Of a stretch of 64,000 nt of DNA, positions 24,001-30,000 are shown in pieces. Each line of letters opens with the position of its first letter. Position 1 is the first letter of the stretch. Source of the stretch: Girardia tigrina (taxonomy: Eukaryota); the NCBI GenBank assembly GCA_001938485.1, contig MQRK01217781.1:21397-85396 (forward strand). The letters run 5' to 3'. Position numbers: made by a program.

Positions 24001-27000
24001 TTACGTTTTGTTTAAACTCGGGCTCTGGAGGTATCTGTTCTCTTCAATGGCTATTTATTCTCGAAATTCTAATCATGCGTTCCTCGTAGAATGATTCATG
24101 TGGATGTTCGTCCCTCCTTTCAAATGTCAGAAATCTATGTAAACTCTCAAATAGCGTTCACGAGTGTAAGTTGCAAGTTCTCAAAGCGTTCTGTAAAGGT
24201 GTCGCTAAAGTGTTCTCTTACTGGTTTGGTTCTGACCCTACTGCAGAACGACTGTTATTTTATATTAGTAATTTTCAAGCTACGGGTGTGCAAAATCGTC
24301 GTGGATATATTCTATTGTCGTATATTAATAATTCTGGATTTTCATTCGCCGGACTTACAATGCATGCCAATTTCTTGACAATTATCTATCATTCTCAGAG
24401 CACATGGTCTATATTAATCACCGGTGATTCATGGTAATTCATAATCATCTGGTGATTCCAGGTTTCGCTGTTGAGTCATGGTAAGTGTTAATTAATTTCT
24501 TTATATTGGTTAATTAATTCTTTCAACTTTACAGGGGTATATCTCTGCTCAGAAAATTTTTTTCGATTCGCGGATTTCGATCGGGGACTTGGTTCGATGA
24601 GAGCTTTCTGGGGAGGTTCGGTTGACCTCATAAGTCTTTCGGGGAGTTCGGTAAGAAACTTTGTTATTTTTCTGGTTCGTATTTAATTAATCTGGTAATT
24701 TTCTCAGACTAATGACTTTCTCAAATTACTGAAAAACTTCTGGTGGGCCGCTATTCAAGGAAAGGAGCCGCTTTGTTCTGTTGTGCCGTTGTTATGTATG
24801 CTTAAATACATGTATTATTTCTTTTTCTTCCTATCTGTTATGTTTTCTTTTGAGTCAATGCTTTTGTAAGGGGTCATACAAGTTAATGCATTTCGGACCG
24901 CAACACATTGTAATGGAAAATGCTCTTTAAGAACACAGTGTTATGAAAACTCTAATAGGTTTAGGGAGCGGGATCAATGGAAAAGGTATAATGGAAATAG
25001 ACAAAATTACTCGAATCCACGGTATAGAGAACGGTGAACATACACGAATAGGAAATACTCAGTAGCAGAAGTGGACGAACTAGATGATGAATTGTACATA
25101 AGAGAAGAATCTAGAAAAGGAGACTATTCTGAAGGAAAGTATAGAAGAGAAGATGACAAAAGACTGGAATATCCAGGAAGCAACAGAAAATTCAAAAATG
25201 ATCAGAGAAACGAGAATGCACGATCACAGGGAGAAGGGATCAGTGTGCTACAATAGGAACTCAATGTAGATGTATGATTAATTGTATGTATGAATGTGTT
25301 TGATATTGTATGTTTGATGATGTGTTTGAAAATATTTCTCTGAAGATGTGTAGATTAGATAATGAACCTGAAGAAGACAATGAAATATGTGCTAGTATGA
25401 CTATAGAAAATGAGAAAAAGATAAAAAAAGAATGCTAAATATGTACTAAACCTTCCTCCCACATAACGAATGTACTCCGTGGTCCGTTTAAGAGCCTCAT
25501 TTACTTCGCTCGAGGGGCTGTTTCGCACGACGTCAGTGAATTCATCTAACTTCCAGAGACGTTCTATGTCCCTCTCTGCTTCAATTTCTCTGGAGAAGAA
25601 TGTCATACACAGATTGGTTTGTTCTGGTTTTCGACGGCCGGCCATTCTCCCAATGCACGTCCATCCAAGGGGAGTGAGTCATGCAACCGGTTCTCCGGGT
25701 TGGCGGCGGATCTTTTTCAACGATACTTACAAACTTGCATGGTTCGCCCGATCAGGCCGTTCACTCTTTCTTCCTGATCGTGGGAAACCTTATCCTCTTT
25801 AGATGCTCCAATCTCGACTTTTCTTCGCTCCAATCGGTATATACAATTACCATAAAATATATATATATCACCTTTTTATTATTAATTTTTTATTCTTTTA
25901 ATTTTTTTCTCTATTATAAAAAAATCATTTGAAACAAAAATTATTCAAACGAAATCGAACAACTACCATTTATTAAAAATCACATTAATTTGCAGTTATA
26001 AATGAGAAAATGTTGTGTTTGCTGTTTGTATCAGAAATATACATTTTTGTCTGAATTTTTTTTCAATGTTTTTTTGAAAGTTGTAATTAATCCTTTGATT
26101 AAAATTAATCCTTAATAAATCTGTAATTTATATTTGACTAATTAACTATAAAATGAAATCAATATTAGTAACTCATTATTCAGTTCTTTTCTTCCATTTA
26201 TTCTTTTAAAGACACTATTAAATTAATTAAAATTTTAATTCTTGTATTAAAATTGAGTAAATATTTCAAAAGTAATATTTAGAATAATAATTTTTTCTAA
26301 ATTAATATGTATATTCTTTAAATATTCAAACTTTCAAAATCATTTTCGGCGAAATTTTAAATTATGAACAAACTAAATTGTTTTAGAAATGTGAAAATTA
26401 TTCGACACAGAAATTTGTGTTCAGAAACCAAAAATTCCGTCAAAATGGATTCAAATGAACACGATAAATTTGTTAATCTATCATCAAAGTGGTTCAAAGG
26501 TATTAGTTACAAGAGCCTTTGAGAGTTATTTTTTTGTGCAATAAGATGAATTAGCTCCGTTACGTACATTAAATAATATTCGCATTCCTTGGATTAAAGA
26601 CAGTTTAGCGTCTACTAGTTCTGTGGATTTTGACTCGTTGCTTCCTTTGAAGAACTTAAAATTACTTGATGTCGGCTGTGGTGGAGGAATACTGACCGAG
26701 GTTCGTCTACTTAGCACTCTATTTTGATATTGAACATTTAGACTGTTTAAATATGGGCACTGCCACATTTAAATAAGACACATGTAATTATTTGTCCGAG
26801 CAAAGTAAAAATTTGTGTTTATTTGGATTTTACACATTTTTATTTTTAATACAAGTTAGATGAGCACTGCGACAAAAAACGGGCGTAGTTCCGTATGGGC
26901 CCAAGTTAATATAAAAATATTATAAGCATATCTGGAGAAATATTTTTATAAAATTTAAAAATTTATTTGAAAAACCACTTAGACAAGCAAAAATATAAAA

Positions 27001-30000
27001 ATTTGATTATACAATCACTAACCTCTGGTTTATTTTATGTATATTTTAAAATTAAATTTGTTTTCTCTCATTTTAAAAACTATTTCTTATTTTTTCTTAT
27101 TTTCGCATAGAAAAATTAATTGAAAATAATTTAAAAAATAGAAAAAACAATTCCAAAAAATTATTCAATTTTAAATATTGGAGCGGAGAATTGCTGATTT
27201 GACCGAACATTTTTGCTAGTTTCAGGAAAATATAAATGAAATATATAATTAAATTAAAAGAAATAATTAAATAAGTAAATAAATTAAAAAAAAAATAATA
27301 AATAACTAAATAAATTAAATAAATGAATTTTAATTGAATCTAATGAGAGTGGAAAAAATTGTCGACATATAAAAATAAACATCATGTAATTAAGAATGTT
27401 TAATCTCAAAATAATCAAATAAAGCGAAAGGGAAATGTAGATCGATAAAGACGATTTCGTAAATAAAAACTGTCGAGTAATTACAAATTCGATATTATTC
27501 GTTTAGGATTTAGTGGAAAATTCTGATTCCGGTGAGATCGGTCGTGATTTGTAATCAATTTGAATGTCCGATATAATAGGGTGTGTTTGAATAGTCTAAT
27601 TAATAACGTTGTTGAAATTATGTATGTGTGTGTGTAAATTATGTTATTTTTCTGACCAAATGGTGAGCCTCTTTTGATTGTGTGAGTGTCTGGATTGCGT
27701 GTGTGTTAAAATGTGATATGTATATAAATGAGTGTGAATGCACGTGTGTTTATGTTATGTCCAATAGGACAAAAAATGTAAAATAAATAAATCTAATTTG
27801 TTGGTAAACGTGTGTAAGGTATGCGAGTGTGTGTGTGTACCCAGAGAATTGTTGTTATGAGCATTTGTCAGAAATTTGAATGAAAGTTGGAAAAAAAGTT
27901 GAATTTTGAGTTGTATTAAAAATTTAAAAGAACAAATAAAATATTTCAAGTTGGAAAATAATTTTTTGTCTTCATTTTCAATTCCACGTAAACTTAAAAA
28001 TGATCTTGCTGACAAATTTAAAAATAAACGATGCCATGGTGTTAGCGGCCTCAATGCAAGAAGATTAAAAGTTTAAATAATCATCAAAATCAAGCGAAAC
28101 TATTGTTTAAGAAAATGACTAATTTATATTATTCAATTTGTTCCATAAAAAGTGATCTATATATGTTTCATGATTTAATTGATAGAGAAATTTGTTGTAT
28201 CATAACTAAAAAGGAATTTTCTAAAAAAGTGGCATTTGCATTTTTGTTTGATATTATAGGTGAATTTCATAATAAATATGGCAATAAATTCGAAATTGCA
28301 TCGAGACCGTATGCATTTATTGAGTTCGATAAAGATATTTAAAATTCACAAAACAATTCACTCGAACACCAATAACTTTTACTCAAATTAATTCTAATTT
28401 AAACGTTCAAAGAATTATAGTGAAAAACATTGACGATGTAATTCAATGAGGAGAATCTCTGAGTGCTTTAGAGGATAAATTGACCGACAGTTCTTCTCTT
28501 TTCAAAACATGGAGACACGGCTTCCTGTCCAAATATGAATAATATCATAAGCGTACGTGGAAAAATATGAAATCAATTTTAAACATTTATTTCCATGTGA
28601 AATCGTTGTATGAATATTTTCTAAAATAAGTCTGTGAATTTAGTGTTTACTCATTCACTTTTTTTTACTTAAAAAATTTTAAATAAATTTTTTAAAATAT
28701 TTTTCCTCATATGCTTATAATATTTTTTATAATAGATTTGGCCGCTATGGAATTTAACCCTAAAAAATTAATATAATTGGACAAAAAATCACTTTGAATA
28801 TTTAAATTATGTTTATAAAACTTTATTAATAGTTTCAGTACCTATTTTTTCATAATTATGATCAAAGTTACTATTTTGGTCCTTCTATGATTTAAATGAC
28901 ATCTCACCAACTTATCCTAGATTTAGCTTTATCTACTTGATTGATTATGTTCAACAATTTTAGTAATTTTCCTCCAGTGTGGCCTCTCCCGACTTTATGG
29001 ATAACTGGGTTGCAGCATTGGTGCACATGGTATTGAACCATACACTCTGAGTGGGTTAAACCTTTGAATCGAAATAGAGTTCGTTCTCCAAGTCCAAGGG
29101 TGCATGTTTGTGATCTTTCAGAGCCATCGGCCGTTTTGGTTTACTGCATATGAAAGACAAGTTGTCATTCTTGTTCCTTAATTTTGTAAACCTTTTGCTG
29201 AACCGACACTTTTCTTACAACAAGGAAAAGAACAGAGGAATGTACCTTTGGTTTTCATGCCTATGAGTCGAAAAGGTTTTACTTCGCCTTATTCAGGCCT
29301 TTCAGAATATATTTCCATAACTAAGAATCTTTCATTCGCGAGAATTAACTGAATTTTACTTTTTCCTGATTCTTTAATCAACATACCAGTCTATAATCTT
29401 TAACCCTTTCAATACGACTTTTGGCCAGTGAAAATATTTTGGTATAATTGAACTACATGTGCTGTAAATGGGTAAAGGGAGATATTTACGTAATTTCATA
29501 TTTTTAGAAAATATAGTTTTTTGAAAAAATACCTTTGGTAACATATGTCCCTGCAGTAGTTTTATTATGGAATAAATATATCCCAATAATATTTGAACAT
29601 TTCTGGGATTTATATATCCCCGCAGTATTGTAATGGTTAACACATTCACTGTTCAAGGGTTTATTAACTATTTACATTATGAATCATATGTGATACTTGG
29701 AGAGTGAATGTGTCTCTGTCTAGTTAAGACTATTTAATATCATCATGATTATATTAATCATTCATTTGTTTTGTAGCTATAAATATAGTTATCCATTGGG
29801 TATATAAATAAACCACCTCTTCTTCTGGGTTGTGCGATAATAAATTCCACTCACATCATATATCTTTTCAGCTCTTTTTATTCTGAATATTCTTTTAAAC
29901 ACCATGAACCTGCAACCAATAATAGTACCACGTGGTTGCTACATTTTCTGATAAGTGATACTCTGTTCTTCTGTTTTGTGAATTATTTCACTTATCGAAC

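What the first reader, a model, noticed from the sequence alone, without database searches (positions are those of the whole stretch)
26881..28760. Pack-MULE-like TIR element carrying a captured host segment including SEC22
Seen in sequence: long TIRs with GGG/CCC ends enclose a decayed SEC22 CDS with its upstream sequence. They also enclose what looks like the 3' end of another gene (candidate short GT-AG intron near 27477-27513, a stop codon, then a TG-repeat stretch like the PP2A 3' UTR). The element sits inside COQ3 intron 2. Established: transduplication is common in plants (Pack-MULEs) and less documented in animals. Inference: this is DNA-level capture of a two-gene genomic neighbourhood.
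Basis: partly seen in the sequence, partly recalled or inferred. Interest (0 to 1): 0.7.

Follow-up and report, generated by a model that had tools for sequence, protein, structure and literature searches.

The report
Old transposon carrying a SEC22 fragment
A long-dead cut-and-paste transposon sitting in an intron of the COQ3 gene carries a broken partial copy of the host SEC22 gene, a kind of gene capture already documented in animals, so it is a tidy but ordinary example.

Summary
The core observation holds. Window 26881-28760 is one 1,880-bp non-autonomous TIR element. Its ~87-90-nt arms are 79.5% alike (0 of 500 shuffles reach the score), with GGG/CCC ends. It lies in a ~3.9-kb COQ3 intron.

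It holds an intronless, 3'-truncated, frame-broken copy of SEC22, about residues 1-181 of 216 (Longin domain E 3.4e-16; PDB Sec22b E 3.7e-17).

A second, cargo-free relative at 42504-43400 shares the termini and both internal backbone blocks. It places the foreign DNA (27183 to about 28530, 1.35 kb) at a single internal breakpoint, so "two independent elements" is very unlikely.

Two retrocopy hallmarks, poly-A and a convincing TSD around the cargo, were looked for and not found. Intron loss cannot be judged without the parental locus.

Not supported: the MULE label (TSD unresolved, no link to the window's MULE transposase) and the "second gene 3' end" (0 of 25 reading-frame pieces hit Pfam at E <= 0.05).

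Best reading: a decayed animal Pack-TIR-type transduplicate, probably made by repair synthesis with template switching. This is a new member of a known kind.

A 63-aa database protein shares one of the copy's frame breaks, so a second copy of the broken duplicate exists somewhere.

The parts
26881..28760 (.). el1: whole non-autonomous TIR element (1,880 bp) inside a COQ3 intron
   Evidence: TIR pair. Terminal motif shared with el2. GC 0.20-0.29 by part.
26881..26967 (+). Left terminal inverted repeat, starts GGG
   Evidence: 0 of 500 shuffles reach the arm-to-arm score.
26968..27182 (.). Left backbone; 27054-27178 is homologous to el2 42981-43095
   Evidence: 76-77% over 121-128 bp, E 6e-18 window-wide. 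Score 62 vs shuffle mean 26.8, 0 of 500. Similarity to el2 stops at about 27182.
27183..27999 (.). Cargo part 1: 817 bp of non-family DNA with no coding signal. It holds an (ATAA)n-like array at 27228-27328 and a TG-rich stretch at about 27600-27840.
   Evidence: Absent from el2. 0 of 25 pieces hit Pfam at E <= 0.05. No Rfam family or tRNA. Tandem array. TG runs.
28000..28530 (+). Cargo part 2: broken, intronless, 3'-truncated SEC22 copy. It covers about residues 1-181 of a 216-aa relative and lacks the membrane anchor. It has 2 frameshifts, 2 in-frame stops and 4 small in-frame gaps.
   Evidence: Longin domain (28094-28333) E 3.4e-16. Sec22b in PDB E 3.7e-17. P0001 is 66% identical over the Longin stretch. 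Three end-to-end tblastn segments, E 1.9e-47.
28531..28670 (.). Right backbone, including an internal TIR-like repeat (28534-28592, in the orientation of the left arm) that el2 also has at about 43105-43160
   Evidence: (I2, D1). el1 28534-28680 vs el2 43100-43320: 1 of 500 shuffles reaches the score.
28671..28760 (-). Right terminal inverted repeat, ends CCC
42504..43400 (.). el2: related 897-bp element without the SEC22 block. It has its own TIRs (42 nt, 86%) and an extra 361-bp segment at 42620-42980 that el1 lacks.
   Evidence: 0 of 11 pieces of the extra segment hit Pfam.
26545..26703 (+). Host COQ3 exon with the SAM-binding glycine motif; the intron that holds el1 starts after it
   Evidence: UbiG TIGR01983 positions 19-65, E 2.2e-10. 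E. coli UbiG structures are the best PDB matches, E 0.1.
30616..30957 (+). Next two COQ3 exons (UbiG positions 66-92 and 98-145), separated by a short intron
   Evidence: E 2.9e-4 and E 1.5e-6. Pfam methyltransferase hits.

Best explanation
el1 is an old, inactive, non-autonomous TIR DNA transposon of unassigned superfamily. It landed in a COQ3 intron. At one internal point it carries 1.35 kb of foreign DNA. The last 40% of that DNA is a partial SEC22 copy in the same orientation as COQ3. This makes it a Pack-TIR-type transduplicate.

Shown: the TIR pair, the family backbone on both sides, the single breakpoint, the SEC22 identity and decay, and the intron position.

Inferred: the block entered by repair synthesis after a break or gap inside the element. 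The repair switched template to an ectopic SEC22-bearing sequence and back, as in the gap-filling model for animal Pack-TIRs. The template was either genomic DNA of an intron-poor SEC22 locus or an earlier processed copy.

The cargo is now dead. It has 2 frameshifts, 2 in-frame stops and no membrane anchor. The element is most likely only intron filler today.
For: - TIRs are far above chance.
- Three of the four termini (both el1 arms and the right arm of el2) share a GC-rich terminal motif of about 25 nt; the left arm of el2 has it with an 8-nt gap.
- el2 has the order left arm / block A / block B / right arm. In el1, blocks A and B are split by the 1.35-kb block.
- Each element's two arms share features that the other element lacks; a 16-nt block is present in both el2 arms only. 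The arms are therefore cognate pairs.
- SEC22 identity is firm.
- No other SEC22 match in the window has E < 0.05.
- No poly-A follows the copy, and its coding similarity stops at the backbone junction.
- Tan et al. 2021 (PMC8277862; abstract, sections 7 and 14 and passages read) describe 370 such animal Pack-TIRs. They are mostly single-copy, made by transposition-independent gap filling, with microhomology at breakpoints.
Against: - With only two family members, the polarity of the 1.35-kb difference is unknown. It could be a deletion in el2 rather than an insertion in el1.
- The SEC22 copy is intronless over about 181 codons, and this genome's COQ3 has exons of 160 bp or less. A processed-RNA origin of the cargo is therefore quite possible.
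- No parental locus could be read, so the parent-identity, uniqueness and intron criteria of Pack-TIR calling are untested.
- The junction microhomology (AAATAT) is weak evidence; the random rate is 2%.
- There is weak similarity (7 of 300 shuffles) between the SEC22 C-terminus and 28585-28674, a stretch I count as backbone. It is seen only with P0001 and not in el2. It is unexplained.
Confidence: 0.6

Rival explanations
1. Nested retrocopy. A processed SEC22 mRNA copy was inserted by a retroelement's machinery into a pre-existing MITE; the element itself captured nothing.
For: - The copy is contiguous, with no intron-sized gaps over about 181 codons.
- The genome splits COQ3 into small exons.
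- Reverse-transcriptase-bearing elements are present in the window (RVT_1 at 19758-20072, GIY-YIG at 52215-52604).
- AAATAT flanks the block on both sides.
Against: - No poly-A or poly-T at either end of the block.
- The coding copy is truncated at its 3' end, not its 5' end.
- 817 bp of extra non-coding DNA lies upstream of the ATG, too long for a usual 5' UTR.
- A 6-mer recurs that way at 2% of random junction pairs.
Confidence: 0.15
2. The SEC22 block is ancestral to this element lineage. A Pack-TIR that already carried it transposed or was duplicated, and el2 is an internal-deletion derivative.
For: - AAATAT at both edges fits a deletion between short direct repeats as well as it fits an insertion.
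- P0127 (63 aa, unnamed) is 90% identical (37 of 41) to the window copy and only 65% to P0001. It reads on in the window copy's shifted frame, so a second copy of the already-broken duplicate exists.
- A weak SEC22 C-terminal signal lies in what I call backbone.
Against: - el1 and el2 are only 61-77% alike and differ in arm-specific blocks, so they look like different subfamilies.
- el2 shows no SEC22 signal.
- P0127 may be an allele or orthologue of this same locus rather than a paralogue.
- An antisense probe ORF across the cargo found 0 relatives among 1.84 billion representatives.
Confidence: 0.15
3. The two TIRs belong to two independent elements that happen to flank a SEC22 pseudogene.
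For: An extra TIR-like repeat at 28534-28592 faces the right arm (I2), so 28534-28760 alone looks like a small foldback unit.
Against: - el2 has the same internal TIR-like repeat and the same order of blocks within one 897-bp element.
- The left half of el1 has no right arm of its own.
- The terminal motif occurs only at the el1 and el2 ends in 64 kb.
Confidence: 0.03

Closest known systems
Animal Pack-TIRs (Tan et al. 2021, Nat Commun 12:4280, PMC8277862)
   Same: Host sequence of 100-5,000 bp lies between the two halves of one degenerate TIR element. The carrier is old and short. The breakpoint is internal and shows possible microhomology. The location is intronic and on the same strand as the host gene.
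   Different: Their calls require a unique parental copy of at least 90% identity and exclude intronless copies of multi-exon genes; neither could be tested here. This example is much older (arms 79.5% alike; cargo 66% aa identity to the nearest known SEC22). Their cases are mostly hAT and TcMariner, whereas this superfamily is unassigned.
Plant Pack-MULEs
   Same: Long TIRs enclosing gene fragments, often with non-coding flanks or several fragments.
   Different: No 9-11-bp TSD was found. No TIR link to a MULE transposase was found. According to section 7 of PMC8277862, no Pack-MULE was found in 100 animal genomes.
Ssk-FB4 of Drosophila melanogaster (same paper)
   Same: A TIR/foldback carrier with subterminal repeats holding a 3'-truncated protein-coding gene copy. 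There is a possible second copy here (P0127).
   Different: Ssk-FB4 is young, multicopy, expressed and under selection. This cargo is dead, and multicopy status is unproven.
Turmoil-1 of C. elegans (PMC2572040; search listing and start of abstract only)
   Same: Transduplication of protein-coding sequence into an animal DNA transposon.
   Different: In Turmoil-1 the captured sequences sit inside the inverted repeats. Here the cargo is internal and single.
Processed retrocopy nested in a DNA transposon (the ARF6-in-MER20 case that Tan et al. call ambiguous)
   Same: An intronless gene copy between the two halves of a TIR element.
   Different: No poly-A was found, and the truncation is at the 3' end rather than the 5' end.

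Membership tests
Non-autonomous TIR DNA transposon (MITE-like) | Terminal inverted repeats above chance | tested here: met
   79.5% over 83 bp, E 5.9e-12; 0 of 500 shuffles.
Non-autonomous TIR DNA transposon (MITE-like) | Other copies share the termini and the internal backbone | tested here: met
   el2 at 42504-43400. This is the only other copy in 64 kb.
Non-autonomous TIR DNA transposon (MITE-like) | Target-site duplication of fixed length | tested here: inconclusive
   el1 best 8 bp at 6 of 8; el2 5-6 bp exact. The flanks are A- or T-runs.
Non-autonomous TIR DNA transposon (MITE-like) | No transposase ORF | tested here: met
   The only Pfam family in el1 at E <= 0.01 is Longin; one weak, unrelated hit (SAC3, E 0.043) lies in the left backbone.
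Pack-TIR (criteria of PMC8277862, section 14) | Internal sequence of 100-5,000 bp flanked by two parts of the same TIR element, each reaching its terminus | tested here: met
   1.35 kb lies between backbone blocks A and B of one element.
Pack-TIR (criteria of PMC8277862, section 14) | Unique parental copy elsewhere, similar in length and not itself flanked by TEs | not testable with these tools
   No genome of this organism is available. There is no second SEC22 match in the window.
Pack-TIR (criteria of PMC8277862, section 14) | Not an intronless copy of a multi-exon parent | not testable with these tools
   The copy is intronless over about 181 codons. The parent's structure is unknown.
Pack-MULE | 9-11-bp TSD | tested here: not met
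   9 bp: 5 of 9 (el1) and 3-5 of 9 (el2). 10-11 bp: 5 of 10 and 5 of 11 (el1), and 1-4 of 10-11 (el2). Decay could hide a TSD.
Pack-MULE | TIRs related to an autonomous MULE | tested here: not met
   No TIRs were found around the FLYWCH+MULE ORFs at 1242-2651. The arms give only AT-rich background matches there. Only this one MULE could be compared.
Processed retrocopy | 3' poly-A tract | tested here: not met
   None follows the last SEC22-like codon or lies at either cargo edge.
Processed retrocopy | TSD around the copy | tested here: inconclusive
   A 6-bp AAATAT lies at both cargo edges; a 6-mer recurs that way at 2% of random junction pairs.
Processed retrocopy | Parental introns lost | not testable with these tools
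   There are no intron-sized gaps in the copy. The parent was not available.
SEC22 (longin R-SNARE) | N-terminal longin domain, SNARE motif and C-terminal membrane anchor in one open frame | tested here: not met
   The longin domain is present and SNARE-region similarity is present. The anchor is absent or unrecognisable, and the frame is broken by 2 frameshifts and 2 stops. It is a pseudogene fragment.

The most novel reading that the evidence does not exclude
The SEC22-bearing element is, or was, a multicopy Pack-TIR family that moved after capture in a little-studied, AT-rich metazoan. P0127 would then be a paralogous, rearranged copy, and el2 a deletion derivative. That would add a rare animal case of transposition-dependent gene-fragment shuffling; only 4 of the 370 Pack-TIRs in PMC8277862 were multicopy.
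Probability: 0.15. Interest if true: 0.5.

Novelty: new member of a known kind. Interest (0 to 1): 0.3.

Why it matters
Capture of gene fragments by DNA transposons is well known in plants. It has been catalogued in animals only once at scale, and mostly in vertebrates. This element is a clean, old example in a divergent invertebrate-like genome, and a cargo-free relative 14 kb away fixes the breakpoint. It adds a data point on how such chimeras arise and persist in introns. It does not change the picture: the cargo is dead and no function is indicated.

Tried and rejected
1. Second gene 3' end in the cargo. 0 of 25 pieces in 27183-28000 hit Pfam at E <= 0.05. No Rfam family or tRNA was found. 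Rejected as unsupported.
2. The extra el2 segment 42620-42980 as a second cargo. 0 of 11 pieces hit Pfam. Left open.
3. MULE link. No TIRs were found around the window's MULE transposase. The terminal motif occurs only at the el1 and el2 ends.
4. Parental SEC22 inside the window. None found.
5. SEC22 C-terminus continuing into 28536-28760. For P0001, 7 of 300 shuffles reach the score. For P0002 to P0005, 148, 201, 261 and 289 of 300 do. There is no signal in el2. Treated as unresolved and probably AT-rich coincidence.
6. Probe for other copies with the 105-aa antisense ORF 27758-28072. 0 hits at E <= 0.001.
7. Naming the organism. The PP2A-A exon 44035-44706 has 1,426 relatives, but the best 120 listed are only 44-54% identical (Macrostomum lignano scores highest at 52%). 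The organism is left unnamed. Nothing in the window looks human.
9. Microhomology and TSD statistics. Too weak to use.
10. LTRs around the retroelement remnant. No direct repeats of at least 40 nt in 16500-25500.
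Full report
**Setting.** The window is AT-rich eukaryotic DNA; GC is mostly 0.22-0.40 per kb. It has two N runs, at 243-286 and 60607-60780, which I left untouched. It carries intron-split host genes and many transposon remnants. The PP2A-A exon at 44035-44706 has 1,426 relatives in the protein collection, but the best 120 listed are only 44-54% identical; a flatworm protein scores highest at 52%. The organism is therefore a divergent metazoan that I cannot name. Nothing in the window looks human.

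**The observation.** The stretch 26881-28760 begins with GGG and ends with CCC.
- The two ends are inverted repeats. blastn aligns 26889-26967 with 28752-28671 at 79.5% over 83 bp, E 5.9e-12 against the whole window. The core is 43 nt at 86%.
- None of 500 dinucleotide shuffles reaches the arm-to-arm score: 47 against a mean of 17.6 and a maximum of 29.
- Between the arms, the longest open stretch of the + strand (98 codons) matches the whole Pfam Longin profile, E 3.4e-16. It matches only Sec22b among solved structures: 4 distinct sequences, best E 3.7e-17.
- The closest database protein, P0001 (216 aa, unnamed source), is 66% identical over this stretch. The best named relative is a tunicate SEC22b-like protein at 47%.

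**State of the SEC22 copy.** tblastn with P0001 gives three collinear segments in two reading frames that overlap end to end, from 28000 to about 28515, joint E 1.9e-47.
- They cover about residues 1-181 of 216, with no intron-sized gap.
- The copy has 2 frameshifts, 2 in-frame stops and 4 small in-frame gaps. It lacks a recognisable membrane anchor.
- A weak continuation to residue 213 after a 60-bp gap is seen with P0001 only (7 of 300 shuffles reach it). It is not seen with P0002 to P0005 (148, 201, 261 and 289 of 300) or in el2. I leave it unresolved.
- No other SEC22 match in the window has E < 0.05.

**Host gene.** I searched the COQ3 model exon by exon and did not join the exons.
- The UbiG/COQ3 profile TIGR01983 matches positions 19-65 in 26545-26703 (E 2.2e-10).
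- It matches positions 66-92 in 30616-30732 (E 2.9e-4).
- It matches positions 98-145 in 30736-30957 (E 1.5e-6). All three are on the + strand.
- The element therefore lies in a ~3.9-kb intron, with the SEC22 copy on the same strand as COQ3.
- The presumed upstream exon gave no hit, so the number "intron 2" is unverified.

**The key new evidence: a second element.** A window-wide blastn of the element found a relative, el2, at 42504-43400.
- Its own arms are 42 nt at 86%, and 0 of 500 shuffles reach their score.
- The right arm of el2 and both arms of el1 share a GC-rich terminal motif. For the terminal 26 nt of el1-left vs el2-right, the score is 14 against a mean of 6.0, 0 of 500. The left arm of el2 has an 8-nt gap in the motif.
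- The motif occurs nowhere else in 64 kb, apart from one 8-mismatch chance match.
- Internally, el1 27054-27178 matches el2 42981-43095: 76-77% over 121-128 bp, E 6e-18 window-wide, 0 of 500 shuffles.
- el1 28534-28731 matches el2 from about 43105 to 43353 at 61-72%; for 28534-28680 vs 43100-43320, 1 of 500 shuffles reaches the score.
- In el2 these two blocks are about 10-15 bp apart. In el1 they are 1.35 kb apart.
- The foreign block is therefore 27183 to about 28530 and sits at one internal breakpoint of one element.
- Each element's arms share a feature that the other element lacks: a 16-nt block found only in both el2 arms. This also argues that each pair of arms is cognate.
- Both elements have an internal TIR-like repeat (el1 28534-28592). 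That repeat is a family feature, not the end of a separate element.

**Retrocopy or capture.**
- No poly-A or poly-T lies at either edge of the block or after the last SEC22-like codon.
- The coding copy is truncated at its 3' end and stops at the backbone junction.
- 817 bp of non-coding DNA precedes the ATG.
- AAATAT lies at both edges of the block. A 6-mer recurs in that way at 2% of random junction pairs in this window, and my boundaries are only good to a few bases. It fits microhomology, a short TSD or a deletion scar equally well.
- The missing introns are the one feature that points to a processed template. This genome's COQ3 exons are 160 bp or less, but PP2A-A has a 223-codon exon. 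An intron-poor SEC22 parent therefore cannot be excluded.
- The parental locus could not be read. The only open contig collection holds bacteria and archaea, and I did not use it.

**The rest of the cargo.**
- Of 25 reading-frame pieces of at least 20 aa in 27183-28000, none hits Pfam at E <= 0.05; there is one hit at 0.095.
- No Rfam family and no tRNA is present.
- The block holds an (ATAA)n-like array at 27228-27328.
- It also holds two of the window's three (TG)n>=4 runs. The third lies 170 bp past a PP2A-A exon.

**Superfamily.**
- Flank comparison gives 6 of 8 at 8 bp for el1. For el2 it gives 5 of 5, or 6 of 6 if the element ends one base earlier.
- At 9 bp the values are 5 of 9 for el1 and 3-5 of 9 for el2.
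- The flanks are A- and T-runs, so none of this is firm.
- The FLYWCH+MULE transposase remnant at 1242-2651 has no detectable TIRs, and the arms find only AT-rich background there.
- "Pack-MULE" is therefore not supported. "Pack-TIR" is the neutral name.

**Another copy elsewhere.** A search restricted to proteins of similar length found P0127 (63 aa, unnamed source, 949-bp contig).
- It is 90% identical (37 of 41) to the window copy but only 65% identical to P0001.
- It reads on in the window copy's shifted frame, so it shares one of the frame breaks.
- Its last 20 residues match the reverse strand of 28490-28549 (13 of 21, E 5e-4 in a 900-bp space).
- A second copy of the already-broken duplicate therefore exists, with a structural difference.
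- An antisense 105-aa probe across the cargo found nothing among 1.84 billion representatives.

**Comparison with what is known.** From Tan et al. 2021 (PMC8277862) I read the abstract, sections 7 and 14, and passages returned by term searches.
- They report 370 Pack-TIRs in 100 animal genomes, mostly on hAT and TcMariner carriers, and no Pack-MULE.
- Only 4 were multicopy.
- Single-copy cases are attributed to transposition-independent gap filling, with microhomology at breakpoints.
- Their pipeline discards intronless copies of multi-exon parents as possible retroduplicates, and they call an ARF6-in-MER20 case ambiguous for that reason.
- The present element meets their structural criteria. 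The parental criteria are untested.
- My two literature searches found no later animal survey under the terms Pack-TIR, Pack-MULE or transduplication. I did not open any supplementary tables.

**Verdict.** This is a real, old, dead transduplicate on a non-autonomous TIR element in a COQ3 intron. It is a new member of a known kind. The MULE label and the two-gene story are not supported.

Noticed in passing
window 18800-23000 (+): Decayed retroelement remnant, probably the virus-like stretch the operators mention. It has a reverse-transcriptase fragment (RVT_1, 19758-20072, E 8e-15) and a zinc-knuckle ORF (22350-22691). GC rises to 0.39-0.46. There are no direct repeats of at least 40 nt in 16500-25500, and no protease, RNase H or integrase hit. 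Described only.
   Followed up: partly
window 1242-2651 (+): FLYWCH zinc finger ORF followed by a MULE transposase-domain ORF (E 8e-10 and 8e-14). No TIRs were detectable, and an N run lies upstream at 243-286.
   Followed up: partly
window 13854-15542 (+): piggyBac-type transposase (DDE_Tnp_1_7) split over two open stretches (E 1e-31 and 1e-20).
   Followed up: no
window 31450-32495 (-): mariner-type transposase remnant (HTH_48 plus Transposase_1) just downstream of the COQ3 exons.
   Followed up: no
window 52215-52604 (+): GIY-YIG nuclease-domain ORF inside a PP2A-A intron. From recall, not from a call, this domain is typical of Penelope-like retroelements.
   Followed up: no
window 29407-29528 and 4838-4958: A 122-bp repeat, 86% identical and in inverted orientation. 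One copy lies in the same COQ3 intron as el1.
   Followed up: no
window 42620-42980 (inside el2): A 361-bp segment with higher GC (0.32) that el1 lacks. There is no open frame above 52 aa and no Pfam hit. It could be a second, unidentified cargo or original internal sequence.
   Followed up: partly
protein P0127 vs window 28229-28351 (+) and 28490-28549 (-): An unnamed 63-aa database protein matches the broken SEC22 copy at 90% identity and then matches the opposite strand further on. This suggests another, rearranged copy.
   Followed up: partly
window 44026-53241 (+): PP2A scaffold-subunit (HEAT repeat) exons are separated by ~4-kb introns full of repeats. el2 lies about 630 bp upstream of the first of these exons.
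   Followed up: no
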